Part shown: positions 26,580 to 61,861 of the stretch, piece after piece
Numbering within the stretch: the first letter of the stretch is position 1
Layout of the letters: every line of letters starts with the position of its first letter
Assembly: GCA_020137815.1 (NCBI GenBank)
Contig: CM035355.1
Span: forward strand, 310,001 to 374,000
Source: Hormiphora californensis
Lineage: Eukaryota > Animalia > Ctenophora
Length of the DNA: 64,000 nt
Direction: 5' to 3'
Notes under the pieces: model-generated
Databases searched by the model: none
Told to the model about the DNA's origin: nothing
Seen by the model: only the letters and a program-made list of their open reading frames with translations
Made by a program: the position numbers and the translations under genes

Positions 26580-26880
26580 AAAGTTCATGTGTTGCCACGC
26601 TTGATATTAGTCTCATCTTCAATAGTTGATAGAAGTTTATGGACAACTGAGACAATGATTTTATTGCAGGAAATAAATCACACGACGGTTTCGTCGAACA
26701 TCAACATCATCAGGCTGCTCAAATTAATTTGTTTAAAGTAGTGTTAAAAAGTTTGAAGTTTCAAACTTTTCAATTTAATTTGAGCAGCCTGATGATGTCG
26801 ATGTTCGACGAAACCGTCGTTTGATTTATTTCCTGCAATAAAATCATTGTCTCAGTTGTCCATAAACTTCTATCAACTAT
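26580..26880. mobile_element. Inverted-repeat insertion (Penelope pLTR/retrozyme-like) with hammerhead cores and spliced-leader-like centre
   Basis: Inverted arms 26622-~26757 and ~26755-26880. A 12-bp direct repeat CAAACTAGTTGG at 26568-26579 and 26881-26892 is the probable TSD. Each arm reads SL-like + CAGC-CTGATGA-TGT(C/T)G..CGAC-GAAA-CCGTC + downstream AATAAA. Confidence 0.7.
26786..26822 (+). ncRNA. Minimal type I hammerhead ribozyme motif (variant with an extra U after A9)
   Basis: AGC-CTGATGA-T-GTCG-ATGTT-CGAC-GAAA-CCG-TC-GTT: catalytic core, 4-bp stem II, very short stem III, predicted cleavage after C26818. Mirror copy on the minus strand at ~26681-26716. Confidence 0.55.
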
Positions 26881-28568: not shown

Positions 28569-31181
28569 TATATAGCGAGGGGTAACAGGACACTACTTTA
28601 TTTTACTCCATGCACCACAACTCTCATGATAGCTTTAGCTCTCTCTATCCCTCCCTCATTCCCTCTCTCTCTCTATCTTGTCCCCCTCTCTATCTCTCTC
28701 TCTATCTTGTCCCCTCCCAGCTCCCTAGGAGGAGTTGGAGCAATTTAAAGGGAGTGCCGGGAGAAGATGGGGTCTTAAACTAAAAATATATAAAGGGGAA
28801 ATAGGATGGGGTCAGGTGGCCCTAACACCTGGCGTATACCAGAGGTACGTAGGGAGATAGAGGGTGGGCGAGATAGAGATGGAGAAAGATGGAGAGACGG
28901 AGAAAAGTAAAGCAGCCAGAAAAATGCCTGAATGCACTGCTCGTGATGCTAGCTTTGTGCTGTCGGATAACTTGGAAAACATATGTTCGTTTCCAAGCGG
29001 TATTTTATCACCAATGGACAAAACCTGGAGGTCTGTAGCTGGAGGTATATAGCCGAATTTTTCTCGCTAAACAAAGAAACTATGTTACCACTGAACGGTG
29101 CAAATCATCGTGCGACAATATCATGCCGCCTTCAGAAGACTGTGGTCTGCGAGTGACGAGTGGCAAAAAGAAGGAGGTTATCGGCCCCACCCCGTGAGGA
29201 ACGAAGGTTACCTGATATGCTCAATTACGAACATGAGTAAAGAATATTCTACCGCCCTCTTGGGGCACACCATGCGGCCCATAAATAATATGAATCAGAT
29301 GGTGCGGTCATGTTGGAGCTGAAGTAAAATATAATCCTGATTGCAGCAAAGTTTAAAGAGACAATAGACGAAGATCAAGGAGCACTAATGTAATGTATCA
29401 TGATCATTCTCGTGACTCATTCAAAGTTTTAAGTAGGTTAGTCATCACAGTTCGTACTACTTCAATGGGTTAGGGGACATTCTGGGTGACATTCATAGTT
29501 TGTTTTTGTTATGTTCTAACCCTCCTTTACACAGTCTAGCTAGGCAACTGGCAAAGTTTGTTTTTTATTGTTACACGTCCTTTCTGGGGCCTGGGCGAGG
29601 AGCCGAGATCGGCGGCATTTACGCTTGCAATATTTTTTATTTCAGCACTGCAGTCTACACCACGCATAACTCGATTTCTTGTTTGATCATAGTAGTTTCA
29701 GAAAATGTGAGACTGGCCCGGTTCGGGGCCGGGGAGACTTGGTACTCGATTGAGCTGCTTATTGGGGGTCCTTCCCCAAATGTGTGTACCTTTGCTACAG
29801 AACTAGACAATTAGGCAGGCATAAGCCATTAGGCTAGCCGCTAGAAAACAAAAACTTTGTTTTTGAAAACCGTGGTCATTTTTTGTTTTTTTAAAGTAAA
29901 AAAGTGTTTCAATTCGAGTCGAACGCGCAGTTTCTTCTTTTGCGCGCGGCGTGATAATGCAATGTATACTGACAAAATCTGCGGCGGTCGTGATTCTATC
30001 TCCTTAAAAACTCTTTAGGCTGTCCGTTCAACGACAGGGGGGTCCCTTCGTGGTTTCCCGTTTAACAAGTAAAAACTAAGTTTGAAATTTAGTGGAAAAT
30101 ATAACTGCTAAATACACATAACTTTGAACACGCACACAACCCGCTGGTTCCCTTTCAGCTTCACTTTCAGAATAACATGTGAAACGACAAATCTCTCACG
30201 AAATAATAAACACATAATACACTGCAACACCGGTTTGTTTACAATATGGCTCTCTCTCAGGAGTTATAATGTATTGGGTTTGTAAGCCAACAACTTTATC
30301 TAAGATTGGGCTCTGCCCGGAAATCCCTAATAGTATTACGTTTTCTCTCTTTATGCTCTCTCTCTTTCACGTGTTAATAGTTTCTATCCCGATGCAATCC
30401 CAAGGCGAAATCAGCCCGCGGAATAACTTATGTGGTATCGTCAACATGCGTACTTTCTCATCATCGTGTCTCCCTTTTTCTCGGTTCTTCAGATTTAACA
30501 TGGCAGGACCAGGGATTTTCCTTTCAGAACTGAGATCGGAGAGAAGATGGGTTAATTGATGATAAACTGAGAATAACCAAATGGTAAATAATGAGCTCCA
30601 ACAACATTATTTCTAATATTATGAGGGCTACTACAGCCCCACTACAGCTGGAGTCCCGAGGATAGTAGGTATATGTAGATGTAACAGTTACATTGTAACT
30701 GTATGTGTATAACAGCTTCACTCTAACTGGGGAGCGGGAAGGGGCTGTCACATTATTCCATGAGGATTACCTATGCAGCAGCAACGTGGCATGGCGTGAC
30801 GTGGTGGAATCATGCTATGTGATCCAAGGGTGGAGAGATCAGAGAGAAAGGTTGATTCTCAGTTGCAGATTCACAATCAAAGCCCCATACATAATTACAC
30901 CCCTGTCCACCAACTTCAATTAAATCGCTCCGTACCTCTTCACACATACTTTCTTACACTCACACTCACTTTGAGCTATCCAAGAGCTAACTTGTTGGAA
31001 TTATAGCTACGTCGCTGCAGGACACATCACATGCGACTGCTGACTAGCCCCAACTTTCATACCTCTGCGCGTTACTGCGCGCGCCTGCCATGAGTCTCTG
31101 TGTTGTGGTAAACTGACTGCAGCTGCAGCAGAGCAAGTGTGTGTGGGTAGGAAATGCATTTGGAGCGGCGGGCTGGAGAGT

Positions 31182-32722
31182 TCAAAAGCTAGCTTCCCTT
31201 TTGTGTACTACAATTCTTGTGTCTGCTATTCTCCTTTTTGTACAAAATGAAAAATGAGTGTACAATTTACAAATTGGCATGAGTGTACATTCTGTTCTCT
31301 CAGATCTGTCTCAAATCCATATTTCGATGGCATTCGATATTTCCCACCTACCCTTGGTAATGTAGAGGTAGAAGAAGTCAATGTAGAGGACAGTCTGGAC
31401 AACTCCGGCCACAACAGCAATGGGGTCAAAGAAGGACTCGGTGTAGAATCGGAAGATCCAGTTTAGGATGTAGAGGCCACGGTACGCTCCCAACATGAAC
31501 AAGTAATGGCTGAGGGGTTAGAGAGATAGTGGAATAGAAAAGTTAATTACTTTCTTCTTGCAATAATTTATCGTAAGGAGTTATAAAAAAGAGAAGAATT
31601 GAAAGAAATAAGAAGGTTTCAATTTGCCACTAGATGGTCACCTGGTAATGGTTTCTGCCTCTCCGGTTTTGGACATCATGAAGAGCTGAGGAAGGATCGC
31701 ACCAGCCTCAAGATAGATGGAGAACGTCCAGAGAATCTGAAATCGGGTTTTAATCAAAATTTGGGATAAATTCTAAGAAACGTCTGTATTTCCTTCTACA
31801 CTGCATGGCCAATTTGGAACCTAGGCACTGGACAGTTTCTTGTGTGCTAGAAGAAACCATATTATGGAACTAGGTTCAACAATCAACATTCTAATTGCAT
31901 AGTTGCTAATGCTCCTACTGCACAGTTGCTCCTGCTAATTACACAGTTGCTAGTGCTCCTGCTAACTGGAATGTTTCTCCAGCTAATTGAACAGTTGCTA
32001 ATTGCAATGTTGCTCCTTCTAATTGCTGTACTACCTCAGAGAAGGTGAAAGAGTGGTTGAGGATCAGGGCCAGGATCAGACAGGGTCCAAGAAGGAACTC
32101 CACTCGGAAGGTATCATGGTTACTATCATAGGTTGATTTAAACTTCATGAAGATCAGGTAGCATGTTCCTGAAAGAGGATGTGTTTGTTGGTTACAACAG
32201 GTGGGAAGGGGTCAGTAGAAATAGGCGTGAGCGTGTGTACACTGGAACTACTTATAACACATGGTGCCCGACTCTCTCTCTCTCTTTCTACTAGAATAAA
32301 TTATAATAGTACCACTTACCGACACTGCAGCAGATGTAGATAATTTTCATGCCAGTGTTATAGAGGGAGACAAAGCTGAAAAACAAATCCAAATAACGAG
32401 TACAAAATACTGCGGCGAACAGAGCCTGAGATTTACCCGAAATTCCTGAGGGAAAATAATCATTTAGGTACAAAAACAATGTGACTAGTCTACCTAAGTA
32501 ATAGGAAACGTTATTCTTATCTAAGGAACGGCATGTTACCCCTCTCAAATAACAGACGTCACAGGGTAAAAGTTAAAGTAACTTTGGCATGCTCTATGAC
32601 ATAAAATTGAAATCGGAACATTTGGGTTTACCTGCACAAGATCGTGTCTTCCATATCTTTAGAAGTAGGATTACAATAGCTGCCAAATGGCTAAGATCTC
32701 CCGCCAACCGGAACAGATTCAT
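31182..32722 (-). CDS. KDELR: ER lumen protein-retaining (KDEL) receptor, canonical copy; 6 exons
   Basis: Exons 32722-32632, 32445-32320, 32168-32035, 31736-31642, 31509-31352, 31207-31182 (GT-AG, in phase). [37 protein letters not shown]...TRYLDLF...DTFRVEFL...[18 protein letters not shown]...[21 protein letters not shown]...[17 protein letters not shown]. The terminal exon frame is uncertain (VHKREASF*, or VHKGKL.. if one A is an error). Confidence 0.93.
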
Positions 32723-32856
32723 CCTATCTCAACTACTAAGTGAAGATAAAATGCGTAAAGGAGGGTTAGATTATAACAAAGGTGTCCGGGGACAGGACAG
32801 AGAACAACACTAGATTTTTTAAAAGGTAATAAAAGATTAAAAAATTATACATAATT

Positions 32857-34245
32857 TAGGTGCCGGCAGGCACCTCCGACCCGAAGAAAACAGCAAAAAA
32901 CGAAAAAAAGAAAAAAAATTTTTTGCCCTCGCACAAAACCCCAAAAATGCCGGCCCTATTAAGAACAAAGAAAGGTCTTTTTTTGGGGGGGGGGGGGGGG
33001 GGGGGGCAAAAAACATGTCAACGATTGTGGCCACACCGTTTGAGATATCGACTTGAAATTTTGTAGGCATGTTCTTGTAGTATTCCTTTGTGTCATGACG
33101 TTGGCGGATTTTTGAATTTTTAATTAATTAATTAATTATAGGTAATTAAAAACGGTGCAAGGGCACCGTGCCCCTGCACATTGCGTGTTCTGTCCCTTGC
33201 ACCGCGCCCTTGCACCAAATTCTATTTTCCGTTCTGCTTAAAATATCGACTTGAAACTTTGTAGGAATGTTCTTCAATCATAAAAGATGATGTTCGAAAA
33301 GTGGGAATAGTCAAAATTAATTAATTAGTTAGTTAGAGCCGTGCAAAAAATGGAATTTGGTGCAAGGGCAGGCAATGTGCAAGGGCAAATGGTGCAAGGG
33401 CAGCCCTTGCACCAATTTTATGATCGAACTGTGTCCACACCGTTTAATATTTTGACACGAAACTTTCTATGCATGTTCTAGTAGCATAACTACGAGTACT
33501 AGAAGAGCCGTATGATTAATATATCAATTAGGTAATTAATTATAGGCAAATTAATTAAAATTTGCCCCTGCACAATTTGTGCAAATTTCCCCTGAACATG
33601 TGCCCTTGCACCATTTTGTTTTCTCATGCACATTTTTTGCAACTTTGATATTCAAACTGTGGCCACACCGTTTGAAATTTCGAAATGAAACTTTGCATGT
33701 ATGTTCTAGTAGTATAACTACGAGTCATAACGGAGCCGGATTTTTGATTTTCTAATTAATTAATTAATTATAATCAATTAAAACTTTTGCCCCTGCACCA
33801 ATTTGCCCCTGCACAGTTTTGGCAAATTTGATATTCAAACTTTGAGCCTTTGTGAAAGTAATGAAAATTATTTATTTCAGGTTATGATGAACAATAAGCT
33901 ATAAAAACGCCCCTTTTTGTTACACAAGCCTGTGCTTGGTATCGAAGACACCTCACACTCTGTCGCCGGGCGACCTTCGCGTGCACACGCTGGCAAGGGG
34001 TAACTTCGTAACCAAAGCCTGTGCATTGTGCATAATGAAATGGATAAATTTTCATCCAGTTGCTGGCGAGAGAACTCGATAGAGTTCGATTGATTTACCA
34101 CGACAACGGAGTTGGTTACCATACTAACCAGAGAATTCGTTGTAAAATAGTCCTTTCTTGCTATAAACTCGGCCTTTAGATAGAAAATTGATTTTATTAT
34201 ACTCACACTAATGCAAGGGCATTTCACAGTTTGGTGCCGTTATTT
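32857..34245. mobile_element. Non-autonomous repeat element with internal tandem units, between the two KDELR copies
   Basis: Terminal hairpin AGGTGCC-GGCA-GGCACCT. Four diverged units of CCACACCGTTTGA..GAAA(C/T)TTTG..ATGTTCT, plus many TGCAAGGGCA/GCCC(C/T)TGCAC motifs. Boundaries are approximate. Confidence 0.5.
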
Positions 34246-34544
34246 TTGTCTCTATTTTAATAGGATTTTGGGATTAGACTGAAAGTATGGGATCATTTGA
34301 GAAGTAGTGAAGATTTGAAAATGTTAGCAACTTGCCGGTTCGACAAACTAAACCCATATGATTCCAACTTCGGGTCGGACGAGGGGAAGCTTGCCTTTTG
34401 CGAACATAATAATAAAGGTAGAAAAATGTAGATAAATCAGTATTAAGTCAGTATCAAATCAGTATCAAATCAGTATTAAATCAGTGCATATATATATAAA
34501 AGTAATAAATTAGATTAATGTCATTGGCCGATATATTGATTAGG

Positions 34545-36546
34545 CTACAGAACCGAGTTCATTTGTTCCCTTGGAGAGAACTTTAGAAGTGGGTCTGTCT
34601 CTTTCGGGTCGTCCGGTAAATGCGGAATAAGGCGGGACTTTTCAAGATGTTGGTCCGGGTTGTTTTGTTCAACACGCAAAGGGCAGTCTAGCTTGGCAAG
34701 GTCTGGGTTGGCACCGAAGAAGAAGAAGTAGAAGAAGAAGCCAATGTAGAGGACAGTCTGGACAACTCCGGCCACAACAGCATAGGGGTCAAAGAAGGAC
34801 TCGGTGTGGAATCGGAAGATCCAGTTCAGGATGTAGATGCCACGGTACGATCCCAACATGTACAAGTATAAGCTGAGGATAAGGTTGGAGATAGTGAAAT
34901 GGAAAAAGTAATCAATTTCTTCTTGCAATAATTCATCGTGAGGAGTTATAAAAAAGCGAGGAATTGAGAGAATAAGAAGTTTTCAATTTGCCACTAGATT
35001 CACCAGGTGATTCTTTCTGCCTCTCCTGTTTTGGACATCATAAAGAACTGAGGAAGGATCGCACCAGCCTCAAGATAGATGGAGAATGTCCAGAGAATCT
35101 GCAATCGGGATATTTAATATTTAGTCAAAATTTGGGATAAATTCAATGGAACATCTGCCTGTAATTCCTTCTACCTACAGTTACGGCCAATTTGTTTCTT
35201 GCACGCTAGAAGAAACCCCATTATCTATTATTGCATGGTTCAACAACTTCAATTGCACAATCTACACTGTAAACTATCTCATTGTGTGGCCCCGGTGCCC
35301 GGATTATAAAAATTTTCGATAAATACGGATTTCAGGTGTCAATTTTGCTGCCAAAATTTTTTCAATTTGCTGCCGATTTGCTGCCTCGTGAATCGAAATT
35401 TGTCCGATGGCAGTCCGCGATCGGTCCAATTGCTGCTGGCAGCATAATCTTATCTAAAAAAAGGTCACCGGTTAGATCAATTTGCTGCCTCGCCCTTGAT
35501 TTGCTGCCAAATTAAGGGCATTGATCTCTTGGGTATTTGCAATATCCGGGCACCGGGTGTGTGGCTCACACCGTCATTTTATTTCAAAATGCGAGCGTGA
35601 TCTGTGATGGTTCTGTAGATCAACTCATACCTCAGAGAAGGTGAAAGAGTGGTTGAGGATCAGGGCCAGGATCAGACAGGGTCCAAGAAGGAACTCCACT
35701 CGGAAGGTATCATGGTTACTATCATAGGTTGATTTAAACTTCATGAAGATCAGGTAGCATGTTCCTGAAAGAGGATGTGTTTGTTGGTTACAGCAGGTGG
35801 GAAGGGACTGGTTAGAAATAGGGTCAGGCGTGAGCGTGTGTACACTATACAGTATACTGAAACAACAACAATAAGTCTAAACATATGTTGCTCGACCCTA
35901 GAGAGCCCTTTCTAAGAAGGATACAACAAATTATGCAACTTACCGAGACTGCAGCAGATGTAGATAATCTTCATGACAGTGAGATAGAGGGAGACAAAGT
36001 TGAAAAACAAATCCAAATAACGAGTACAAAATACTGCGGCGTACAGAGCCTGAGATTTACCCGAAATTCCTGAGGGAATATAATAATTTAGTTACAAAGT
36101 TTTCCCCTTTTATTCTGTAACCCTATTGAAACTGATGAGCTAGTACTTACTATCGAAACAATTGTCATTCCATAAACTCGTGTTTTGTTTTGTTTGAAAC
36201 CCCAGAGAATCCAAGTTCTCTGTAGAGTTCTCTCTGAGGATTGACTCCCCAAACCAACACAGTAATAATAATTTAGTTAGGTACAAAACCAAAGTGAATA
36301 CCTAAGTAATAGGAAACGTTATTCTTATCTAAGGAACGGCATGTTACCCCTCTCAAATAACAGACGTCACAGGGTAAAAGTTAAAATAACTTTGGCATGC
36401 TCTGATGACAATGTCATCATGACATAAAATTGAAATCGGAACATTTTGGGTTTACCTGCACAAGATCGTGTCTTCCATATCTTTAGAAGTAGGATTACAA
36501 TTGCCGCCAAATGGATAAGATCTCCATCCAACTGGAAAAAATTCAT
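34545..36546 (-). CDS. KDELR: KDEL receptor paralog, divergent, with novel ~50 aa C-terminal tail; 5 exons
   Basis: Exons 36546-36456, 36069-35944, 35764-35631, 35098-35004, 34872-34545. Exons 1-4 have the same lengths as copy 1 and all splice sites are intact. Open frame [15 protein letters not shown]...[25 protein letters not shown]...QMNSVL*. Confidence 0.8.
35291..35557. mobile_element. MITE with 8-bp TSD in intron 3 of KDELR copy 2
   Basis: TSD TGTGTGGC (35283-35290, 35558-35565). TIR CCCGGTGCCCGGAT / ATCCGGGCACCGGG. Internal TTTGCTGCC repeats. Absent from copy 1. Confidence 0.8.
36095..36264 (+). mobile_element. 170-bp retrozyme/Penelope-like insertion with a type I hammerhead core, in intron 1 of KDELR copy 2
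   Basis: 15-bp TSD ATAATAATTTAGTTA (36080-36094, 36265-36279). Absent from the paralogous intron of copy 1. Contains CTGATGA-GCTAGT-ACTT-ACTATC-GAA-ACAATTGT-C (36132-36166) with palindromic stem III ACAATTGT. Confidence 0.7.
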
Positions 36547-37275
36547 CCTATCTCAACTACTAAGTGAAAATAAAATGCGTTAGTAGATAATGGAAATTGG
36601 GGGGGAACAGGTTGTTTTAGTAAAAATCATGATCCCTATTTCTGTTTTGGTTGACGTGAGAGGAAGAACGGGAAATTGTCGCGAGACTACCGTAAATTTG
36701 AGGAGTGTTTTGGAAACCCTACCGGTAAGAAGTCTTGCAAATAACATCAAAATGTTCCTGGACGATCAACTATCACAGATGTTTTCCAGATTACAGATTA
36801 CAAATAGACTGGGGAATAGTAATTTTAACTGTGCCCTCCCTTCTGCACACGCAGTAGTGAACGATAATTAAGGTCAAGAGCCTCCAAGAGCGGACCACAC
36901 ACAGAACACTCAATTAGAGGTATGTCTACCATTCAATTTGTCACACCCCTCTCACATTTGGCCAAGCCCGCCAAATTTTGGCTCCCTAATTGGAAAATCA
37001 TTCCCCCTGAGCTGACACTGGTAACTTGTGCAGCAGCTGCACGAAGAATACTACAAGATAATATATTGTCTTTCCGGGTTGAAAGTGAAGGAGAGATGCT
37101 CTTTTCATTTTCAGTGTCTCGGAGCAGGGAGCTTCGGGACAAAAAAAATTGAAAAAAGAAAGAGAAAAATTGAGCGGAATCCTAAAATTTAAAACCAAGT
37201 TAAAAAATCAGTGTTGAAATGCTCCGCGCGCCTTAGATTAAACTGTAACACGCATAAATTTTGCATAATACACGT

Positions 37276-37495
37276 AGTGGAAGCTCTTACGGTAATTCCC
37301 ACGCCCCGTGGGAAAGTTTTTGACCGTGGGAAAGTTTTCAAAGCGTGGGAAAAGAGAGATACATACAATAACTTTTAAAAAATAATTATTTTTTTAATGT
37401 TATTGTATGTATCTCTCTTTTCCCACGCTTTGAAAACTTTCCCACGGTCGAAAACTTTCCCACGGGGCGTGGGAATTACCGTAAGAGCTTCCACT
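37276..37495. mobile_element. 220-bp palindromic MITE in the KDELR2/CENP-X intergenic region
   Basis: AGTGGAAGCTCTTACGGTAATTCCCACGCCCCGTGGGAAAG... is reverse-complemented at ~37400-37495, with an AT-rich centre. Confidence 0.75.
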
Positions 37496-37692
37496 TTTTT
37501 TTTATTTAACTTAAACGGCTTTTGTCAACACAAATAATTATTTTTTAAGACGCGCGCGATAAATGTCGCGTCGTGTGAAAATTTTCCGCCCAGCTTTCTC
37601 ACTTTTCGTTTTTGCCTAAGTTTGCGTTGTTCAAAGAACTAAAAACGCTCGCAAGTAAAGAAAATTCACAATACAAATTATAGACATGGCAA

Positions 37693-40600
37693 ATGGACAA
37701 CTCTAACAGCCTTAAGTTGTTTAAAGAAGTAAGTAACTCGTTTTGATGCCGCTTTTTAAGTCTCAAAATATTAGAAGTATTCAAATTGTAACCACACCCT
37801 CCCTTCCTCAGGCCACAGTCGCCAAGTTATTACAAGAACATTTCAGTAATCAGAAAACAAAATGTAAGTTATTTTGGGGGGTATATGGGTTGTCAAGATA
37901 TTTTGCCATCTGAATCGCTTATCGTAATCAAATTGCATTTTGTTAGCTTAACTACATTATATCTGCATTTTGTAATTGATGAATCGTTTACTCCCAATAA
38001 TTTATCTTCAGTTGTTTGGCTTAAGATGATAATTGTTGTTATATCATTGAAGTACCATTGAAAGCTGTACCCACGATTGTTATTTTACGTTTTTCTAGTA
38101 TGAAACTTATTTTACTAACAGTTGGATTTCTCATTATTACCGTTCACTGCTCAAGAGACCCTCATTCAGTACTTGGCGTGTCACGCGGTGCCAGTAAATC
38201 AGAAATTCAGAAAGCCTACCGAAAACTTGCTCGGAAGTACCACCCCGACGTGAGTACGGAACCTAATGCTGAGGATAAATTTACTGAAGTAGTCGCTGCG
38301 TATGAAGCACTGACAAAAGAACCAGAGCCCCAGCAACAACAACATCGATCACGTAGTTATCAGCAGGAGTTTTATTTCAATGGACAGCGATACACATTCT
38401 CCAGTGGCGGTGGCTTTAATGGTTTCCACTTCAACGATAACTCTCGGAGGGAGCCTCATAAAGACTCGCCTATTCTCACTGTCAAGAGGTTTGAACAGGA
38501 GGTGTTACCGGACAGTTACTCAGCTGTTCACCTCGTTAAGGTCACCTCAAGGTGGTGCTTCCTATGCATGGAGTATGATAGGGCATGGCCTGACGTTATA
38601 AAACACTTTAAACCCTATCACATGAGTTTCTGGGAATTACCCTATGACTCATCTAACATGCGTTCCAAGATCTCAGTTTATGAGATACCTTCGTTTCTGG
38701 TGATAATATCAGGTCGAGTTTATCATTACACATCCATCCTGTCAATCGGGAACCTCGAGGCGTTCATCTTGTCTAAACTACAGTCGAACCTTGTGATTGA
38801 GCAGGTAACTGATAGGAGTGTGGATAACTTTGTCGGAGACTTCACAGACTACAAAGCTAAGTTGATATTCGTTTCAAAGAAGTTATCATTTAGCCAGGCG
38901 ATGGCAGCGTTTAAATACAAAGATCACTACAAGTACGGGCTCAGCTCCACTGCGAGTGATGAGGGAGCCAATTTACATCAGCTGCTACCTAGAGGGGAGG
39001 GTGTTATCATTTTCAAGGAGGATTACCCCGCCATCAGTAGGAAGGATAGTCCAGGCACAATCGATCAAATGATACGGATTTTAGACTTGGAGAAATCGCT
39101 GATTTTACCCAAAATTAGCTCTCCTCAAACATTCGATGAGACCTGCAAAGTCTCGGACACCCAGCCGTGTGTTATATTTGTATTCGAATCTAAAGCGGAT
39201 TACAGCACGACACGATCTCTCATTCAAACTGGGGAATTGGTCTTCAAACGAAACTACCAGTTTTCCTTCCTATACCGGGATGCACAATTCCAGTTTATTG
39301 AATCCTTCTACCCGCCATACCCAGTGAGTAACACTCTCATTCTCTGGAGACACTCCTACAAGACGGCACAATTTACCTGGCTGCCCAGATGGGACCTCCT
39401 CAACGTGGCTGTCCTCTACCAAAACCTGAAATCATCCAGTCCCGGCGGGTTGATAACCCTGGGAACGATCACCAACGAACACGCTCCCTCAATAGTTGAC
39501 AATATCATCGAGTTCTTCAGGTATTCAGGGGAGAGCATCATAGCCCAGGTTCACGTGATATCCCTCAACACCTGGCTATCAATCATCAGCATCATCACCT
39601 TGTTCTGTGTGACCTTCCTCATCAACACTGAGCAGCCCCACCAGGATCGACATGACGGGCAACAGGAGGAACAAAGGACATTCAGACGTAACACGCCCTC
39701 TGTAGAGCTGTTGGAGCTAAATGAGGGCACGATATCACGATTACTTCCCACTGGGAGATCCCAGATATCCCTTCTAATAGTGTGTGATAGGAGGAATGAT
39801 GTGGCACTTCCTGTGAAGGTTGTGTCTGCTCAACTGAAGGAGCTAGCCAGGACCAGTAATTTCCAACTTGCTACTGTCTCCCAATCCGACTACAAGAGTT
39901 GGTTGTTACGTTTTGCTGAGCACGCCGGGTGCAGGCTAATTGAGGGTTCGGTGATTGCAGTTAACTTTAACAAGAAGTATTACAACTTTTTTACACCGGT
40001 CAATATGTGTTCCAATAGTTCTCTCGGTAACCTGCAAGATCGGGTAACGCTGTGGTTTGAGAGGTTGTGCGAGGGCAGTTTGCCGCGGTTTAATCTTGAG
40101 AGTATGGAACTACCCACTATCTCGACGTGATTATATAATAAATGACGGATATATTCTATATATTTGTGTGTATAAATTTGTTATTTTCTTGTTTAACTTA
40201 ATTTGATTCCACTTCTTTCCTTTGAAATTTTGCAATTTTTGTTAACTTTGCCCCAACTCTAAACCAACTCCCAACACCGCTAACCGCTCTGTACACATAG
40301 TTGGTTTTATTGGAGGGATTATGGAGGTAACTGTAATACGTGATCCAGTACCCAGTAAGTATTGTCAAGAGATTCCTTGTTACACACACAATCCCAACAC
40401 TACATTTAGAAACAGACGCACTGTCTCTTATTGACAGTCATTTACTGTCAATACGTGATCTACAGTTCACGAGATAGTTCCTTCAGTGTGTTAGTTTCTC
40501 AGTAGGTGTTGTATTGTGTGTGTAAGCAGGGAATGAATTCATTGTAAGTAAGAGTGTAACATATTGTGTGTACAGTGGTACTATCCTCCACAGTACATAC

Positions 40601-41274
40601 CATGTATCACATGTCGTGTGGGCTGGCAGTTTTTGGGCCGGCCGCAACACGTTCATGCCACATACTAGGAGATGGGATAAGGGGGCAAAGAGGCATATTT
40701 TGGGCCTGCCATACTATCCCGTCGAGCTAGGGTGCTGCTGTGCACACCCGAGTAGTATAGTTGTTGTGTATTGGTGGGTGAGCTGTGCTCCCTTTGTAAA
40801 ATAGTAATCAGGGGGTTGTGTTCAGGGACGAGGGAAGGGTTTGTAACTTGCCACCCCTAACAACCATCCCTTCTTCCAGTGACTTCAGAGGGTACTGCCA
40901 TCGCGACAGAGTACCTCACTGCATTTGTCAAAGAAGCCATTGATCGTGCCGTACAACAAGCCAAAACAGAATCATCCGAGACTGTAGAGGGAGACCATCT
41001 TGAGAAAGTTATCCCACAACTGGTTAGTAGTTCTGTTTATAATACTGAAACCGAAATACTTAATTCTCAATAACTGATGATAGTTGTTACGTCATGTTGA
41101 TTGTTGTTAGTTGTCTCTTATTAGTTTTTAACAAATCTCTCTCTCTCTCCCTCAGTTACTCGACTTCTCTAACAAATCTCTCTCCCTCAGTTACTCGACT
41201 TCTCTAACACATCTCCCCCTCAGTTACTTGATTTCTCTAACACATCTCCCCCTCAGTTACTCGATTTCTCGTAA
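37693..41274 (+). CDS. CENPX: Centromere protein X (STRA13/MHF2); 4 exons
   Basis: Exons 37693-37728, 37812-37863, 40880-41022, 41257-41274 (GT-AG, phases 0,1,0) give [82 protein letters not shown]. This matches the CENP-X histone-fold signature (F..E.V..LL..HF...KTK; LEKV.PQLLLDF). Confidence 0.9.
38100..40130 (+). CDS. DNAJC16: DnaJ subfamily C member 16-like (ERdj8) ER co-chaperone, intronless, nested in CENP-X intron 2
   Basis: First ATG at 38100. Signal peptide [18 protein letters not shown]-domain (DPHSVLGV...[12 protein letters not shown]), thioredoxin-like WCFLC segment, further Trx-like regions and a TM helix ([17 protein letters not shown]). AATAAA at 40137. Confidence 0.85.
41131..41274 (+). 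repeat. Tandem 33-35 bp repeat, 4 copies of the CENP-X terminal acceptor plus LLDFS codons
   Basis: Unit (A)CA(A/C)ATCTC..CCCTCAG|TTACT(C/T)GA(C/T)TTCTC. Acceptor AGs end at 41155, 41190, 41223 and 41256. Confidence 0.9.
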
Positions 41275-41275
41275 G

Positions 41276-44200
41276 ATGACACTCAGCTTCATGGACGAGT
41301 TTAACTTTTCACAGACCTACGCCACACCTCAGACAGAGGAGTGTACAAAATGCTCAAAACTAAACACAGAGGTAATGTTGGACCTAGTGAGGCTAGTATT
41401 GCTATCTCTTCGGGAGAGTTTAGAAAAATTATTATTCGGATTGTTAAATTCTTCAGACTAATGATAACAAAGTTAGCCCACTATCACAAACATGTTTTGA
41501 ATTCTCTTTCAGAACACAGAGTTAAAGAATCTGCTGGCGACAATGAAGCAACAAGCGGCCAAGACTGGTGAAGTGCTGAAGAAATTCAATGCGGTCTTGA
41601 AAGGGAGTCAAGCCCAGAAACAGAAAATTGAAATGGTGAGTGTTACACAGTTTATCTTTTTGTTATTCCACGACCTTTTTCAATTTTCGAGCGTATAATA
41701 CCCTCTCCGCTGTCTCTACCAAGTGAGGGAACATATATGAAAATTTAATTAATGTTCCTAACATCCTTCTCCCTCTTCCCAGTTGGAACGACGCGAGGAA
41801 CAGAGATCAGGAGAGCTCCAAATGGTTCGATCGCAACTGAAGCGAGCCCTTGATAACCCCGGGGAAGACTACCAGAGGAAGATAAAACACCTGGAATCAG
41901 AGCTGGCCAATGAGAGAAGTGCTAGTGGTCACGTGAACAGACAATTTGATACCCTCCAGAAGCAGATTGAATCTCTGGACGAGGAGAGAAAGGGTCTGGC
42001 GAAGGAGAAGGCGAGCCTCAAGAAGAAGCTGGAGTACATCACTGTTAAGTGTAATAAAGCGGAGAAAGCAGCTAAACAGGCACCTGCATCATCTGCATCA
42101 GGTGCTTCAGCAGTATCTGGTGGTGGTGGTGATGAGGGGTCGAAGTTGGCTGATCTGAGGAAGGAGATGGGGGTGTTGAAAAGGGAGAACACCCGTCTTC
42201 AGAACTTCAACGAGACGAAGATAAATGACCTGGCTGACAGGAAGAATAAAGACATTACAGCCCGACTCACCAGTATGGAATCCATGATGCAGAGTATGAT
42301 GGAGAGCATGAGGGATAACGTTGCTGCTACCTCTGCTGCTGCTGGTGTCAGAAACACCTACAGAGGTACCCCAAAGATGTCGCCCAGTGGCAAGAGGATG
42401 GGACGACCTCCCAAACGACGTTTTCCCTCTCCAGAACCGAGTGAGGTTGAGGAACCCTCAACACCCCCACCTCGGTTCAAGAAGCCAGTAACACGGCCTC
42501 TAATGAGGGAGACCGCCCTAACAGATGACTCCGCATCTGATGGTGAGCTAGCAAGTCAATTGGAGTCTTCTCTGAACGATGTGTTGATCTGTGATCCCAT
42601 TCTCAAGACACCACCAAGGAAAAAGAGGGGTCGCCCATCCACCAGAGCTACATCTCAAGCTGCCGTACAAGCCATGGCAGTTGCTATATCAGCTAGGAAA
42701 GCAAAGGAAGCAGCTCCTTCACCATCTGGAAATACTCCTTTACCAACTGCAACAGAAAAGGTGGCAACTAACACTCCATCCTCTCAACCATCATCATCTT
42801 CCCGGCAATCCACCAGTTTCCAATTCCCTACCAGCGCCATATTCGATCTATTCCTACCGCTCCCAATCATCACACCCCTGGAAGCTCCAGTAACAGTCGG
42901 AGAATCATCCGCTGTTAGTGAGAGTCCGATAATTCCCCGTGAGTCAGCTGATACACCAGTTAAATCCGAGTTGAGTTCTTCAACAGCATCCCCCGCGGCG
43001 GTGAAGGCAGAACCTGCGGTGGACCCTGTGGTACCTGCCCCCAAACCAAGTTTCATACCGGTCCGGTTTGTGAAGGCAACGTCAGCTGTTCAACCTGTTA
43101 AACCTGTTCAACCTGTTGAACCAGTCAACATGGCTAAACCTGTTGAAATTGCTAAACCTGTCGTAGTTCAACCTGTGGTAGTTGAACCAGTTGAAATCGT
43201 TAAACCTGTGGTAGATGAACCTGTTGTTGAACCTGGTACTCCGGTGAAAAATGAACCTGAACCTGCAGATCTCCCAGTCATCTCTCTTGAACCTGAACCT
43301 GTAGGAACACCTGTGAAGGGTGAGGCATTCGAACCTGCTGTGAAACAAATCCCTGAAGTGGAGGAGAAACCTCTCACAAAGTTGGAACCTCTTCCAGTTG
43401 TTTCCGATCCAGTGGTAACAACTGTAACAACACCTGAGCCCGTATCACCCGCCGCTCCTTCCCTTGTTCCAGTTGCAAAGCCTGAAACTACCGCCGCTCC
43501 TACTCCTGTGACAAAGCCTGAAACTCGCGAAACACCTGTTCCCGAAACCGCTCAGGTTCCTCTCACTGTGGCGCCTGTTCCCGAAACCGCTCAGGTTCCT
43601 CTCACTGTGGCGCCTGTTCCCGAAACCTCCCCGGTTCCTGTGGAACCAGTAACCCCTGTCAAACAGGAGGTAGCTCCCAGCAATGGTCCTGCAACTCCGA
43701 CCAAAGAGGAGCCAGTACCAGTGCCGTTTGGTAGCCCTGATTTCCAGCCGATTTTCATCAAAAACAGGCGGGTCCGGTCGACTCAGCCAGTCCTAACCCT
43801 CCCTCCCATTATAATCCCTCCTGTGAAGAAGGAAGAGAAGGTTGAGGTAGAGGTGGAGGTGGAGGATGAGATATCAGTGATATGTGATCTCTCTGGGAAT
43901 GGAGATCAGGTATCAACAGCGCAACTAAAAACATCTCCAAAAACCCCAGAAGATACCCCTGTTGAAGATACCCCTGTAGAGATGGCCCGTCCTGTCACTC
44001 CTCCCCCTGCATTCCACGCATCGTTCTCTGATACAATAGTCACTGCTAATGACATGCAGTGTGCATTTGAAGTTGACGTGTTATCCACCAACAGTGAGAG
44101 GAAACTGAGACGAGTTCAGAAGATGTTGAACTCGGAGGGAAAAGGGGCGTCTCCTACAAAGAGGTTACGAAGAAGAACTATTAGTTTGAGTGAACCAGGA

Positions 44201-47113
44201 TTGAAGAAAAGAAGGACGGCCAGTACTGACAAGAAGAGCGGTGTGAAGAAGGGAAGTAAAAAGGACCAAGTGAATGGAATAGAACCAGTGGTAAATGGTA
44301 ATATCACAGTATCTCAAGACCTCCCCGAGCTATCCACCACTTTGTCTAGTTCAGCCACAGTATCTCAAGAGCCTGGCCTCTCCTCTTCCACCACAGTCCA
44401 GACGCTGTCTAGTTCAGCCCCAGAAGTTGCAGTCCCAGTTGCCCTAGAGGTTTCAGTGCCAACAGAAGACGTCTCGTGCGATGATGTGCCTCTAGCTATT
44501 GTTTGTGGAGATGATGAACCCTCCACATCCACCGCTACGGATATCCCACCGCCTGTTGAGGAGGTGGAACCATCCAGAAAAAGGAAGAAATCCACAGCTC
44601 CTATAGTGGAAACTATCTTCGACCTCTTCATTCCCCTTCCTCAGATTACTAAACCTGATCTAACCACCACCACCCCCGCTCCACCAACTCCTGCCCAGCC
44701 CCTCAACTCTGTCCCACTCCAACCCTCTGTTGTGACAACACCAGACGGACTACGCTTCCTGCCTGGATACGAAGATTACGAAGATGTGAGGTGTGATAAG
44801 AAAGTTGGGCAGCTCATCACTGAGATGTTTAGGAGGAACATGTACGACAGTGATCCTGATTTGGGGTACCTTTACCGGACATTGGTCTACAACATTCAAC
44901 ATGGTAATATTATTCAGCCTGATGTGAAGTTTTGTGCTGTCATCAGGAATGAGATTGTCATCAGAAACGGGATTGAAACAGCTCAAGCCCCTCCTCCTGT
45001 CTCTGTCCTAGTGGAGTTCTTCCACTCTCTTCTAACCAAGATTTCTGAGGCATGTCCCGGGTTTGGTAATGATGTCTTGAAGCAATTGTTCATGAAACTA
45101 ACAAAAGGTGGAATTAACTTTGATAATCGGATACCGACAATGTTCCAGTTTTGTGTCCAACTTTCCACCGCCATGTCAAGTTTTGAAGATCTCCGTGCTC
45201 ACGTGATCCGGGTTATCCTCCGGAAAACCATCCGGAATTCCTACCAACTGATGAGCCAACTAAACCAGATCACCACAGAGGTCATGCTAGGTGTTAGCAG
45301 TCCTAAAATGAACAGGAAGGACAACTTGCTGCACTTGTTGGGGTTGGAGTTCTTCCTGAGGTATGGTAAGGTGAGGTATAACCCTGCTACCACACAGTGG
45401 GGTTATGTTCACCAGTTTAATGTTGAACACAGACTGATAAAGAGGGCTCTAACTGCTGTTACTACTAAAGGAGAGGACGACTGTGGAACTGATGAGCAGG
45501 TCAGTACAGAATACACACGCTTACACACTGGTATGTAGCGTCTTGGACTGTTAGTTACATTCTGTGTGTAGACCAGTGGTGGCCCCAGCCTGGGGTGGTG
45601 GGGGGGTGGCCACCCCCCCAAAACTTTTCAAACAGGGGTTGTTGGGGGTGGTAAAATAGCTTTAAAATGTGTTCTAAATTGCTTTAAATTGATCAAAATC
45701 TTAAATTTTCCGGGGGCTTCGCCCCTAACCCACACCAAGGGCTGAAAATCGTTAGAATATTGTTCTAAATTGCTTAAAATTGATCAAAAACTAAAATTTT
45801 CCGGGGGCTTCACCCCTTACCCACACCAGGGGCTGAACATCATTAAAAAAGTTTTCTAAAAGGGCTGAAAATTGCCCCCACCAAGGGCTGAAAATCGACA
45901 AAATATTGCTCTAAATCGCTTTAATTCATCAAAATTTCCGGGGGCTTCGCCCCTTGTGACTGAAACTCGTTGAAAAAGTTTTCTAAAAGAGCTGAAAAGT
46001 GTTAAAAAAGTTGCTCTAAATTGCTTAAAATTCATCAAAAACTAAAATTTTCCGGGGGCTTCGCCCCCTAGCCCCCACCAAGGGCTCTGCCCCTGGACCC
46101 CGTTGGGGGGCTGCGCCCCCCAAACCCCCTGCCGCAGCTCCCTCGGCGCCGCTTTGCGGCACCTCGGTCGCTAGGCTTGGAGTTGAAGTGTGGCCTTTGG
46201 CCACACCACCCCCCCCAAAAAATCCGGGCTGGGGCCACCCCTGGTGTAGACGTGTATAAAACTAAAAACGGTATCTGTTTAGATGTCATTCATCACTTTG
46301 CATAAACATCTGGCTAGTTTATTATAGTCTTTTCTCTTCCAGCTGAATGTTGCACTATTCCTGTGTGTAGAAACAGTGTAACTATCAACGAACTAATCTA
46401 TATAAAACTTCTCTCTCTTCAGGGTTTATTGTGTCTACGATTGATGGCTAAATCACAGACCTGGGATTGGGTTATTGGTACCCTTCCTACCTGAAATGTT
46501 CAAGGTTTTGGAAAGTACCACGGAGTACGGTGTATCAAGGTGAGTGTGTAATTAGTAATCACCCCTCTAATGATTAGGATCTAATTAGTGTATGATACAT
46601 TTTGAAATTATACTTAGTTCAGCTAACCAATTAATTCACAGGATGTTGAGTGCAATCAGTCACCTAATTGTCTCTGAGATAACGGATAACAGGGCTGATA
46701 TTGCTGTCATCAGAGAACGACTTGTACCCTGTATCATTGATATTGCATCTTCAGGTACTAGCACAGTTGCCGCGAGCCGCAGTACAAAGCAAACAATCCG
46801 GGTTTAAAATGTCTGCGCGCCATTCAATATCACATGACCTTATTTGGGAAAATGCCAATTTATTTGTCTTCAATTGACACCGTGACAATTGTGCTGGTTT
46901 ATTAACCCCTATTTCCCTCCTTCAGGACCTACCGAGGATGTCAAGATGTCAGCTATAGGATGCTTGGTTGATGTCTATCCAATTTCCCCAGAATCTATCC
47001 GACCCGTCTTGCAACACTGGCATAATGTGAGAAACACAGCCCGCCACATGATATCAGACAGTGACAGTTTCAGAGAACTAGAGAAATGTGTGTTGAAAGT
47101 TTTAACCAAATGA
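41276..47113 (+). CDS. ICE1: Little elongation complex subunit 1 (ICE1)-like; 6 exons
   Basis: Exons 41276-41371, 41513-41635, 41783-45499, 46423-46539, 46642-46754, 46926-47113. N-terminal CxxC (CTKC) plus coiled coil, long P/S/T/E-rich disordered middle, and a C-terminal helical domain (LRLMAKSQTWDW...KMSAIGCLVDVYPISPESIRPVLQHW) resembling the ICE1 C-terminus as recalled. Needs one +1 correction at CCC 46481-46483. Confidence 0.72.
45574..46243. mobile_element. hAT-type MITE in ICE1 intron 3
   Basis: 8-bp TSD GTGTAGAC (45566-45573, 46244-46251). TIR CAGTGGTGGCCCCAGCC / GGCTGGGGCCACCCCTG. Internal tandem AAATTTTCCGGGGGCTTCGCCCC units. Confidence 0.85.
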
Positions 47114-48069
47114 TTAGGCTTATCAGCTTGGTTTTGTCACAGTGTTTTTAGCATAAAGTTTTAATTTATTCGTTTTACAAAATGAGCTGTTTCTGTTTGT
47201 CATTGAAGTGCCTAAAAAAGAATGGGTTTATTGCTGTGAGAGCATTGGCCTGACCCGGTGACCGACGGAACTTTTCATCTAGCTGAGAAACTTGACAAAT
47301 TTGGAGGGGTCTCACTCAGATTTTCCCACGAGTGGAGCGCGTACTTTGCTCACATTGTCTACTTTTTACTTGAAAACATCGCGCGTCTCTCACCGCAGTA
47401 GTCTTCGTCACATATTGGCACACATCTTTCTTAGAAGTGAGGCCCGTCAGTGTTCGAATGGCTGTCAGGTTTCGATTCACCAGGAACATTGACACTGGGC
47501 GGCTGTAACATCGGCCCGGTGCAGTGAGGACAGTCTTATTTGGGAAAAGGAATATATACTATTCATGACAACTTAACCACTCAGAACAGCATTTCCTAAA
47601 TATCACTTGTTATGTTCTAACCCTCCCTTTCGCCCGAAACACATGCACAGTCTAGCTTGGCAATACACTACTCACTAGCTCCATCATAATTTGTGGAAAA
47701 TTAGCTAATAATTACAGCACCAATACTCTAGAAATTTCGAAAGAAATGCATTGTCACTGACGTCTGACCACTGTCGGCTGCCATAGTGTCATTTCATGCC
47801 TGCAATTTCTAGCAGTACCTATAAAAATTAAATTCCATGGAAATTGTGACAGCACCCTCCCGGAAACATTAATAACTCGTGTGAATAATTCGTCCCTCCC
47901 ACGACCTACAAATTCAGGGAGGAGAGAAATGGAATTTCTAGATTAATATTGTAATTCAGCCTGTTTCCTTGATGTATTCAATCACCTTCTCTTCCCGATT
48001 GTGTGCAAGCCATTCAGTTCACATGTGTTGCTGTGTATTTGGCATCGTTTGTATCTGAAGAGAGCATTG

Positions 48070-58164: not shown

Positions 58165-58710
58165 CTAATCCTCTGACAATAATCCCTCAGGATCTTCCTC
58201 AATCAAATCCCTCAAACTGGGAGAACTGGCAATCAACAACTCTGAACACCGCACCATATCGATCGACAACTCCGAACTAACTGAACTTGTTTCACTCGGC
58301 CCGTCTCTCTCAACATTACTCCGTGCCATCCTCAGCATATCCTTTAGGACATTAGTGGAGATTGTCACGTACGCATCCCGAGTATCCCCGCTAGGAAACT
58401 CATCCTCCCCAGGGATGTGCACGAGGCTGTTCCGCTGATAAAACATGTGCTTTGTAACAAACTGCTTGAATTGTGGATCGAGGGATGATTTCTTTATTTT
58501 CTCCCCAGCTGGCATTTTCTTGGATGTCACAGGGGGAAGAAAGTGCTGAGCAATCAATATCTCCACATGTTTAGTGCTGATTACAACTAGTTCAATATCT
58601 GAGACGAGAAGAAGACGCTCCATTAGTTTGTCCACATCTATCTCAGTGAGGAGTCGTCGACTGGATAGGGCCAGGGGCGAGGGGACATCTGGAGTTGTAG
58701 GGGTTGTCAT
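58165..58710 (-). CDS. Orphan family protein, paralog 1 (181 aa, intronless CDS)
   Basis: Open ORF aligning with the 59025-59747 and 61156-61761 products (LLVSDIELVVISTKH, KKSSL, YQRN.LVH.PGED.F, RCSELLIASSPSLRDLIEEDPEGLL). Acceptor TTTTTAG 4 nt before the ATG. Confidence 0.75.
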   Translation of the reverse strand: MTTPTTPDVPSPLALSSRRLLTEIDVDKLMERLLLVSDIELVVISTKHVEILIAQHFLPPVTSKKMPAGEKIKKSSLDPQFKQFVTKHMFYQRNSLVHIPGEDEFPSGDTRDAYVTISTNVLKDMLRMARSNVERDGPSETSSVSSELSIDMVRCSELLIASSPSLRDLIEEDPEGLLSED

Positions 58711-61761: not shown

Positions 61762-61861
61762 NNNNNNNNNNNNNNNNNNNNNNNNNNNNNNNNNNNNNNN
61801 NNNNNNNNNNNNNNNNNNNNNNNNNNNNNNNNNNNNNNNNNNNNNNNNNNNNNNNNNNNNN
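61762..61861. other. Assembly gap (100 N)
   Basis: Run of n. Confidence 1.

What the first reader, a model, noticed from the sequence alone, without database searches (positions are those of the whole stretch)
37693..41022. Intronless DNAJC16 nested on the same strand inside CENP-X intron 2
Seen: CENP-X exons 2 and 3 are separated by a 3.0-kb intron holding a complete 676-codon DNAJC16-like ORF with its own AATAAA. A pyrimidine-rich acceptor (TTTTTCTAG, ending 38098) lies 1 nt before its ATG. If CENP-X exon 2 were cis-spliced to it, the CENP-X frame would end at a TGA overlapping the DNAJC16 ATG (T|TATGA). Established: nested genes are usually antisense. Inference: one pre-mRNA gives mutually exclusive products, CENP-X by skipping, or DNAJC16 by SL trans-splicing or by cis-splicing with a stop/start-coupled uORF. 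The lack of introns suggests a retrocopy that captured the host promoter.
Basis: partly seen in the sequence, partly recalled or inferred. Interest (0 to 1): 0.75.

Follow-up and report, generated by a model that had tools for sequence, protein, structure and literature searches.

The report
Chaperone gene inside comb-jelly centromere gene
In what is likely a comb jelly, an intron-free chaperone gene (DNAJC16-like) lies inside an intron of the centromere gene CENP-X on the same strand, and the two likely share one transcript that spliced-leader addition would cut into separate messages; such nesting is already known to be common in comb jellies, so this is mainly a clean test case for how it works.

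Summary
Observation confirmed: a 676-codon intronless DNAJC16-like ORF (38100-40130, AATAAA 40137) lies on the same strand in the 3,016-nt intron 2 of CENP-X. The best named homologs are ctenophore proteins. Same-strand nested genes and SL trans-splicing are already reported genome-wide in ctenophores (PMC8527503).

Contigs from two RNA-labelled runs cross the AG at 38098 unspliced. A stronger acceptor lies at 38011. Relatives at 52-66% identity also appear intronless, so this is no recent retrocopy.

New here: in one contig of a relative, CENP-X itself carries the SL at 37684. The CENP-X last exon also appears to serve as leader exon of the next gene (one 11-nt hint).

Best reading (0.45): an operon-like unit in which DNAJC16 is released from the CENP-X transcript by intronic polyadenylation plus SL addition. 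No SL was seen on DNAJC16, and an own promoter is not excluded (0.3). I found no report of ctenophore operons in 10 searches. The scan had no note on this locus; similar layouts were noted in other animals.

The parts
37684..37728 (+). CENP-X exon 1 from the SL acceptor (AG at 37682-37683); ATG at 37693; an out-of-frame 6-codon uORF starts at 37686
   Evidence: One 106-nt contig of run X3 (a relative, under 90% alike) has 10 loose 5' letters that, with the AG, equal the last 12 nt of the ctenophore SL in PMC8527503. uORF.
37812..37863 (+). CENP-X exon 2 (52 nt, ends in phase 1)
   Evidence: The same X3 contig runs from exon 1 into exon 2 (25 of 30 shown letters alike). Its 51 loose letters equal the length of the rest of exon 2.
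37864..40879 (+). CENP-X intron 2 (3,016 nt), host of the DNAJC16-like gene
   Evidence: GT..AG. Its acceptor ranks 1st or 2nd of 188 AGs. The joined protein aligns without gaps to P0148. The 37863-40880 joint itself was not seen in the contigs laid.
37992..38011 (+). Likely 3' splice site that starts the DNAJC16 exon (AG at 38010-38011); trans or cis use not shown
   Evidence: Ranks 1st to 3rd of 188 AGs under a matrix from 13 acceptors of this window. 45 of 5000 shuffles of 37864-38099 reach its score. An X1 contig begins at 38021.
38026..38061 (+). 11-codon uORF in the likely DNAJC16 5' UTR, in frame with CENP-X if exon 2 were cis-spliced to 38012
38090..38098 (+).
38100..40130 (+). Intronless DNAJC16-like ORF, 676 aa: J domain with HPD (48-50), WCFLC thioredoxin-like motif (152-156), one hydrophobic segment (about 486-510)
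   Evidence: 66% identical over 690 columns to Bolinopsis 'dnaJ homolog subfamily C member 16-like' XP_063682040.1. Covered in part by contigs of X1 and X2.
40137..40142 (+). AATAAA, predicted intronic polyadenylation signal of DNAJC16
   Evidence: The only AATAAA in 37001-41800. Use not shown; an X1 contig covers 40332-40636 beyond it.
40880..41022 (+). CENP-X exon 3
   Evidence: Pfam PF09415, E 2.4e-11
41144..41270 (+). Four tandem 33-35 nt copies of the last acceptor plus coding end; only the fourth copy gives the normal 82-aa end (the others give 93, 104 or 144 aa)
   Evidence: joint 41022-41257 in X1, 77 letters on the short side
41257..41371 (+). CENP-X last exon (stop at 41272-41274), which likely doubles as leader exon of the next gene (donor at 41372)
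   Evidence: An X1 contig runs from exon 3 to about 41368. An X2 contig joins 9 loose letters plus AG, matching 41361-41371, to 41513. That 11-mer occurs once on the + strand and precedes the only AG|GT in 41023-41510. No AATAAA or ATTAAA lies in 41272-41640.
41513..47115 (+). Downstream gene B (ATG 41543; about 1,400 codons; ICE1-like only as a lead)
   Evidence: RNA joints 41635-41783, 45499-46423, 46539-46642 and 46754-46926. Atlas top hits are ICE1_C at 0.84 and 0.82, below 0.9. Pfam gave only weak coiled-coil-type hits below cut-off.
37276..37495 (.). 220-bp near-perfect palindrome (110-nt arms, 97%) between CENP-X and the divergent KDEL-receptor gene, in the region where a shared promoter would lie
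   Evidence: no other copy in the window

Best explanation
An intronless DNAJC16-like gene lies on the same strand inside CENP-X intron 2 and likely has no promoter of its own: it would be transcribed as part of the CENP-X unit and released as a separate mRNA by cleavage at its own AATAAA (40137) together with spliced-leader addition at an acceptor in the intron, most likely 38011 and not 38098.

Transcripts that pass this poly(A) signal would splice exon 2 to exon 3 and give CENP-X. They likely run on into gene B, whose leader exon overlaps the CENP-X last exon. The locus would thus be a three-gene, operon-like unit with one member nested in an intron, and each pre-mRNA would give either DNAJC16 or CENP-X.

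Shown in this window: the gene anatomy. Shown in RNA-type contigs of this or a closely related species: cover of the ORF, an unspliced 5' region back to 38021, and the exon 3-4 joint. Shown in one contig of a more distant relative: SL on CENP-X and the exon 1-2 joint. Inferred: shared promoter, SL on DNAJC16, use of 38011, use of the AATAAA, mutual exclusion, and co-transcription with gene B.
For: Only 148 nt separate the exon 2 donor from the 38011 acceptor, and 236 nt from the ATG, which leaves little room for a promoter.

The host is itself trans-spliced in a relative (X3 record 17). SL is on at least 56% of Hormiphora Iso-Seq reads (PMC8527503).

38011 scores like the true exon 3 acceptor (10.2-12.2 against 11.5-13.0 bits), and 45 of 5000 shuffles reach it. 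The X1 contig starts 9 nt after it.

A homolog at 53% identity (L001) also has a CTAAC-type branch motif and a CAG 11 nt before its ATG (that AG scores only 1.4 bits).

The X3 contig stops where exon 2 ends, as expected if the path forks there (one contig, assumes no indel).

The CENP-X last exon appears spliced to gene B, and there is no canonical poly(A) signal between them. A relative's spliced CENP-X ORF (P0148) is on a contig of up to 5,178 nt, the order of size of a CENP-X plus gene B message (4,615-4,685 nt predicted).
Against: No SL was seen on any DNAJC16 contig, and no contig joins exon 2 to intron 2 or to 38012 (tables were cut).

The one SL acceptor known here (37683, TAG) scores about -3 bits under the same matrix. 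A high score at 38011 therefore points as much to cis use as to trans use, and a low score at 38098 does not exclude SL addition there.

Starting at 38012 leaves an 11-codon uORF before the ATG.

The SL evidence is one contig of another species, and the window's own 12 nt before 37684 already share 7 of 12 letters with the SL end.

The gene B joint rests on 11 letters in one contig, under the tool's 30-letter guide. The 5,178-nt contig could not be read.

Contigs crossing 38098 may be unprocessed pre-mRNA, or DNA in the case of X1. An X1 contig at 40332-40636 lies beyond the AATAAA. Nesting in relatives was not tested.
Confidence: 0.45

Rival explanations
1. DNAJC16 is an ordinary independent gene with a compact promoter inside CENP-X intron 1, exon 2 or the first 150 nt of intron 2. 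It merely sits in the intron and may or may not get an SL.
For: RNA-type contigs extend unspliced to 38021 and 38060 with no SL listed. L001 has 133 unspliced nt before its ATG. FlyBase treats same-strand nested genes as too ordinary to flag (PMC4528330).
Against: The space is very short. A strong acceptor at 38011 is more than an unspliced first exon needs. The host is trans-spliced in a relative.
Confidence: 0.3
2. Shared first exons: SL, exon 1 and exon 2 are cis-spliced to 38012. The DNAJC16 mRNA then carries a 45-codon truncated CENP-X uORF ending at 38061, and DNAJC16 is made by re-initiation 38 nt further on. This works like unc-17/cha-1 or CPNE1/RBM12.
For: 38011 looks like a cis acceptor (CAG; all 13 training acceptors end in CAG). 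The X3 contig ends at the exon 2 donor. The frame closes before the DNAJC16 ATG.
Against: No 37863-38012 joint was seen. A 45-codon uORF plus a second uATG would lower re-initiation (own knowledge). In the known pairs the shared exons are non-coding (PMC3875643, PMC2568002).
Confidence: 0.17
3. One reading: exon 2 is cis-spliced to 38099, and DNAJC16 is translated by stop/start coupling at the overlapping TGA/ATG.
For: The overlap exists on paper.
Against: Two contigs from two studies cross 38098 unspliced, with 78 and 39 letters on the 5' side. The site ranks 34th to 42nd of 188 as a cis acceptor. The spacing is not kept in L001, where the AGs lie 0, 6 and 11 nt before the ATG.
Confidence: 0.04
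4. The nesting is an assembly error, or the two CENP-X halves belong to different copies.
For: No whole genome is held. No contig bridges exon 2 into intron 2 or exon 2 to exon 3 in this species. The window has a likely 1-nt error at 46486 and an N run at 61762-61861.
Against: The halves join in phase into a gap-free 82-aa CENP-X. Each part occurs once in the window. The intron has a canonical donor and a top-ranked acceptor, and there are no Ns in the locus.
Confidence: 0.04

Closest known systems
Parallel nested intronic genes of the ctenophore Hormiphora californensis (PMC8527503; sections 17, 31 and 35 and passages read, supplements not available)
   Same: Same phylum by homology. A gene inside one intron of a host on the same strand, in a lineage with SL on at least 56% of long reads. 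The paper counts 2,357 nested genes in 1,654 hosts, many parallel.
   Different: [quoted passage not shown] In what I read it names no mechanism and not this pair.
C. elegans cholinergic locus unc-17/cha-1 (PMC3875643, one passage read)
   Same: One gene lies in an intron of another on the same strand, and one pre-mRNA has two processing fates.
   Different: There the genes share a non-coding first exon and act in one pathway. Here the upstream exons are coding, the proteins have no known link, and a shared exon is not shown.
Human CPNE1/RBM12 and Drosophila shared-promoter pairs (PMC2568002 abstract and passages; PMC4528330 passages)
   Same: A shared promoter, with the choice proposed to be made by poly(A) site use against splicing.
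   Different: They use cis-spliced shared 5' UTR exons and no SL trans-splicing.
SL-resolved operons: Hydra RFC140/flp (PMC3273482 passages); nematode, tunicate and flatworm operons (PMC7986045 section 3)
   Same: A promoter-less downstream cistron released by SL addition; close spacing as for CENP-X and gene B.
   Different: In the Hydra case the cistrons are in tandem, not nested in an intron. PMC7986045 (2021) states that operons had not been reported in ctenophores. SL on the nested cistron is not shown here.
Nested single-exon genes of glass sponges, such as glassin (PMC10282587 passages)
   Same: A single-exon gene nested in another gene, in a non-bilaterian with an SL; 2,432 nested genes counted.
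   Different: A different phylum; strand and processing are not addressed in the passages read.

Membership tests
CENP-X (PF09415) | Profile match above the curated cut-off | tested here: met
   Exon 3 alone scores 44.2 bits against a cut-off of 25.
CENP-X (PF09415) | Complete protein of about 80 aa with the LLLDF end | tested here: met
   82 aa; gap-free to P0148 (56 of 82) and 40 of 68 to Apostichopus CENP-X-like XP_071814791.1.
DNAJC16 | N-terminal J domain with HPD | tested here: met
   PF00226, E 1.5e-18; HPD at residue 48.
DNAJC16 | Thioredoxin-like domain with CxxC after the J domain (architecture recalled) | tested here: inconclusive
   WCFLC at residue 152; PF00085 17.9 bits, below the cut-off of 23.5.
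DNAJC16 | Single transmembrane segment in the C-terminal third (recalled) | tested here: met
   Hydropathy above 1.9 only at residues 486-510; a prediction.
DNAJC16 | Full-length likeness to a protein named DNAJC16 | tested here: met
   66% over 690 columns to the RefSeq 'member 16-like' protein of Bolinopsis; the name is automatic.
DNAJC16 | Orthology to vertebrate DNAJC16 by a tree with outgroups | not tested
   The tree held only the close homologs.
Parallel nested intronic gene | Coding sequence wholly within one intron of the host, same strand | tested here: met
   38100-40130 lies within 37864-40879.
Parallel nested intronic gene | Transcript ends also within that intron | tested here: inconclusive
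   Contigs reach 38021 and 40636; contigs cannot show ends.
SL-resolved operon | SL trans-splicing in the lineage and at the locus | tested here: met
   SL tail on CENP-X exon 1 in one contig of a relative; PMC8527503.
SL-resolved operon | SL on the downstream cistron (DNAJC16 or gene B) | tested here: inconclusive
   No SL loose end listed at 38012, 38099, 41315 or 41333; cover is thin (depth 2-10) and the tables were cut.
SL-resolved operon | Polycistronic precursor | tested here: inconclusive
   Overlap of the CENP-X last exon with the gene B leader; no contig spans two ORFs.
SL-resolved operon | One promoter, none between the cistrons | not testable with these tools
   Needs CAGE, chromatin data or a reporter.
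Shared-first-exon pairs (unc-17/cha-1, CPNE1/RBM12) | Shared non-coding 5' exon | tested here: not met
   The exons upstream of the nested gene code for CENP-X residues 1-29.
Shared-first-exon pairs (unc-17/cha-1, CPNE1/RBM12) | Cis joint from the host exon into the nested gene | tested here: inconclusive
   Not among the joints listed; exon 2 is not covered in X1 or X2.
Retrogene | No introns in the coding sequence | tested here: met
Retrogene | Poly(A) relic and target-site duplication | tested here: not met
   No run of 5 or more A in 40131-40879. One shared 10-mer between the flanks, as in 451 of 2000 shuffled pairs.
Retrogene | An intron-bearing parent copy in the genome or lineage | tested here: inconclusive
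   No genome held. 11 full-length ENA members in 5 of 10 clusters sit on contigs over 10 kb and appear to be unspliced ORF calls.

The most novel reading that the evidence does not exclude
Ctenophores have operons, and of a nested kind: promoter-less genes sit inside the introns of a host and are lifted out of the host pre-mRNA by SL trans-splicing plus intronic polyadenylation. CENP-X, DNAJC16 and gene B would form one such three-gene unit, and the same route would explain the many parallel nested genes of ctenophore genomes. In the boldest form a single transcript yields both the host mRNA and the intron-borne mRNA.
Probability: 0.3. Interest if true: 0.7.

Novelty: new member of a known kind. 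Interest (0 to 1): 0.4.

Why it matters
As an arrangement it is ordinary for a ctenophore: one of thousands of nested genes, many parallel. Its use is as a small, fully mapped test locus for two open points. How parallel nested genes are processed was left open in PMC8527503, and operons were stated to be unreported in ctenophores in 2021 (PMC7986045). I found no later report in the listings (open-access library only). Published Hormiphora Iso-Seq reads should settle it with one look-up. If SL sits at the intronic acceptor and there is no internal promoter, this would document an intron-nested operon in ctenophores.

Tried and rejected
Whole-genome checks: no genome is held, so copy number and paralogs could not be tested.

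Synteny in relatives was not obtained. The metagenome scan gave 1 locus from 161 pattern matches, 2,552 nt long, with no CENP-X match (best E 0.40). The CENP-X searches gave no named ctenophore record (10 of the 16 hits were looked up). The gene B search found 0 of 1,138 candidates at E <= 0.001.

P0145 and P0146 (98% to exon 3) run into intron 3 and start at a GTG/TTG, so they say nothing about the exon 2-3 joint.

Read cover: the three runs hold 0.20, 0.12 and 0.00 of the sampled words. X1 covers 19 and X2 22 of 30 bins, with holes in coding DNA too. I therefore draw nothing from missing cover, including the lack of cover over the intergenic stretch and the absence of the 37863-40880 joint.

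The first acceptor matrix had three coordinates off by one and cut translations at 400 nt; replace it. The matrix has only 13 sites, two of them (37811, 41512) resting on single contigs, and the shuffle test was made after seeing the site.

The tree is the quick version of 32 rows. P0123, P0125, P0138 and P0142 were left out as unrelated or fragmentary. It puts the window protein beside the Mnemiopsis/Bolinopsis group (support 93-94), but only two rows carry species names, so it cannot test for duplicates.

No Rfam family or tRNA was found in the window. The L001 upstream DNA shows no clear conserved block. The SL-like copy at 26718-26760 lacks a GT donor, so I rejected it as an SL RNA gene.

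Derelle et al. 2010 was not held, and the supplements of PMC8527503, which list the nested genes, could not be read; this pair may be listed there. PMC12221973 has no hit for trans-splicing or operon.
Full report
Observation. CENP-X has exons at 37693-37728, 37812-37863 and 40880-41022, and intron 2 is 3,016 nt. Exon 3 matches Pfam CENP-X above the cut-off. An X1 contig joins exon 3 to the fourth copy at 41257, the only one that gives an 82-aa protein. That protein aligns without gaps, 56 of 82 identical, to P0148, a record from sequencing-run contigs. I infer that P0148 is a spliced ctenophore mRNA, so that the exon 2-3 joint exists in a relative; whether its intron also holds DNAJC16 is unknown. 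The nested ORF is 38100-40130, 676 codons, with a J domain, a weak thioredoxin hit, one hydrophobic segment and AATAAA at 40137.

Organism. Of 819 hits, 10 cover 97-100% of the ORF at 52-66% identity; an eleventh covers 56%, and the rest of the 120 listed match the J domain only. Named cluster members are from Mnemiopsis leidyi and Bolinopsis microptera, the latter called 'dnaJ homolog subfamily C member 16-like'. The window also holds an exact 17-nt match to the end of the ctenophore SL printed in PMC8527503, within a near-complete SL copy. The window is therefore very likely from a ctenophore.

Base rate. PMC8527503 (section 35 read) reports 2,357 nested intronic genes in 1,654 hosts in Hormiphora, 484 of them doubly nested and many parallel, and SL on 56% of Iso-Seq reads. 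[quoted passage not shown] A glass sponge has 2,432 nested genes (PMC10282587 passages). In human, nested pairs are 152 antiparallel and 75 parallel (PMC2330155 passages), and FlyBase does not flag same-strand nesting (PMC4528330 passages). The arrangement is thus a known kind.

RNA evidence. Three runs were offered, all as contigs, holding 0.20, 0.12 and 0.00 of the sampled words. X1 and X2 contigs are mostly 90-100% alike and show spliced joints in neighbouring genes. Four results bear on the finding (1 loose end and 8 pieces were not shown).

No SL loose end is listed there. These may be pre-mRNA, and contigs drop rare forms, so SL at 38099 is not excluded. It is not the only form, however.

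Second, one 106-nt X3 contig from a relative (under 90% alike) begins with the last 12 nt of the SL joined at 37684 and runs from exon 1 into exon 2. The host is thus trans-spliced in that relative. A caveat: the window's own 12 nt at this place share 7 letters with the SL end.

Third, that contig has 51 letters after 37729, the length of the rest of exon 2. This fits a fork at the exon 2 donor, but it is a single contig.

Fourth, an X2 contig of gene B has 9 loose letters that, with the shared AG, match 41361-41371, directly before the only AG|GT in 41023-41510, while an X1 CENP-X contig reaches about 41368. The CENP-X last exon therefore seems to be gene B's leader exon too, and there is no AATAAA or ATTAAA between the two ORFs. 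The joints 37863-40880, 37863-38012 and 37863-38099 were not seen.

Which acceptor. A matrix from 13 acceptors supported by contigs in this window ranks 38011 first to third and 38098 34th to 42nd of 188 AGs in intron 2. The true exon 3 acceptor, not in the training set, ranks first or second. 45 of 5000 shuffles reach the 38011 score (tested after seeing the site). The X1 contig starts 9 nt after 38011. The SL acceptor of CENP-X scores about -3 bits, so the matrix describes cis sites and cannot tell trans from cis use. Starting at 38012 leaves an 11-codon uORF. A cis joint from exon 2 to 38012 gives a 45-codon truncated CENP-X ending at 38061.

Retrocopy. The ORF is continuous in L001 (53%, one segment). 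Full-length members lie on ENA contigs over 10 kb in 5 of 10 clusters (11 records). ENA records of CENP-X exon 3 run into the intron, so these calls appear unspliced, and I infer that the gene is intronless across ctenophores. There is no poly(A) relic, and the one shared 10-mer between the flanks arises in 451 of 2000 shuffles. That other animals have introns in DNAJC16, and that the CENP-X introns here sit at the same places as in human, is recalled and was not tested. An ancient retroposition is possible; a recent one that captured this promoter is not supported.

Mechanism. It works like unc-17/cha-1 (PMC3875643, one passage) and CPNE1/RBM12 (PMC2568002 abstract and passages) in offering two fates for one pre-mRNA. 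It works like the Hydra RFC140/flp operon (PMC3273482 passages) in relying on SL. It is not a member of the first kind as defined, since the upstream exons are coding, and membership of the second is unproven.

Novelty. PMC7986045 (section 3 read) states that operons had not been reported in ctenophores as of 2021. Ten searches (listings only, open-access library) showed no later report and no paper on this pair. The supplements of PMC8527503 could not be read and may list the pair. The scan had no note near this place or on this sequence; word look-ups returned similar layouts in other animals and nothing. Verdict: a real locus and a new member of a known kind, with a corrected anatomy and a cheap decisive test; interest 0.4.

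Noticed in passing
window 26690-26812 (-): A near-complete copy of the ctenophore spliced leader (about 26718-26760) sits inside an inverted-repeat element and is not followed by a GT donor. It may be a small mobile hairpin that carries the SL. Such elements could account for some of the hundreds of genomic SL copies counted in PMC8527503.
   Followed up: partly
window 41144-41270 (+): Four tandem 33-35 nt copies of the last CENP-X acceptor and coding end, each scoring as a strong acceptor. RNA uses the fourth; the others would extend the protein to 93, 104 or 144 aa. The RNA donors may have fewer copies.
   Followed up: partly
window 30160-36575 (-): Two tandem KDEL-receptor (ERD2) copies, 85-88% alike. 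The copy next to CENP-X is divergent from it, 1,109 nt from the SL acceptor, and ends in a different C-terminal extension instead of the last exon.
   Followed up: partly
window 37276-37495: A 220-bp palindrome (97%) with internal 18-nt repeats between the divergent genes; single in the window. It may be a MITE-like insertion.
   Followed up: no
window 41513-47115 (+): Gene B, about 1,400 codons, with an N-terminal coiled coil and an ICE1_C lead (0.84). The window has one base more at about 46486 than contigs of two runs, which breaks the frame and is likely an assembly error.
   Followed up: partly
cluster 2: Two Mnemiopsis PP2C-like proteins (locus G013627) are filed in the cluster of the DNAJC16 homolog (G013630) although unrelated to it. 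The near locus numbers hint that the Mnemiopsis gene overlaps or neighbours that gene. The window has no PP2C match.
   Followed up: partly
P0151, P0156: These likely ctenophore records match only the second half of exon 3, which suggests an extra CENP-X intron in relatives that this species lacks.
   Followed up: no
window 58165-59750 and 61364-61903 (-): Three related ORFs of 179-241 codons; the two scanned have no Pfam match.
   Followed up: no
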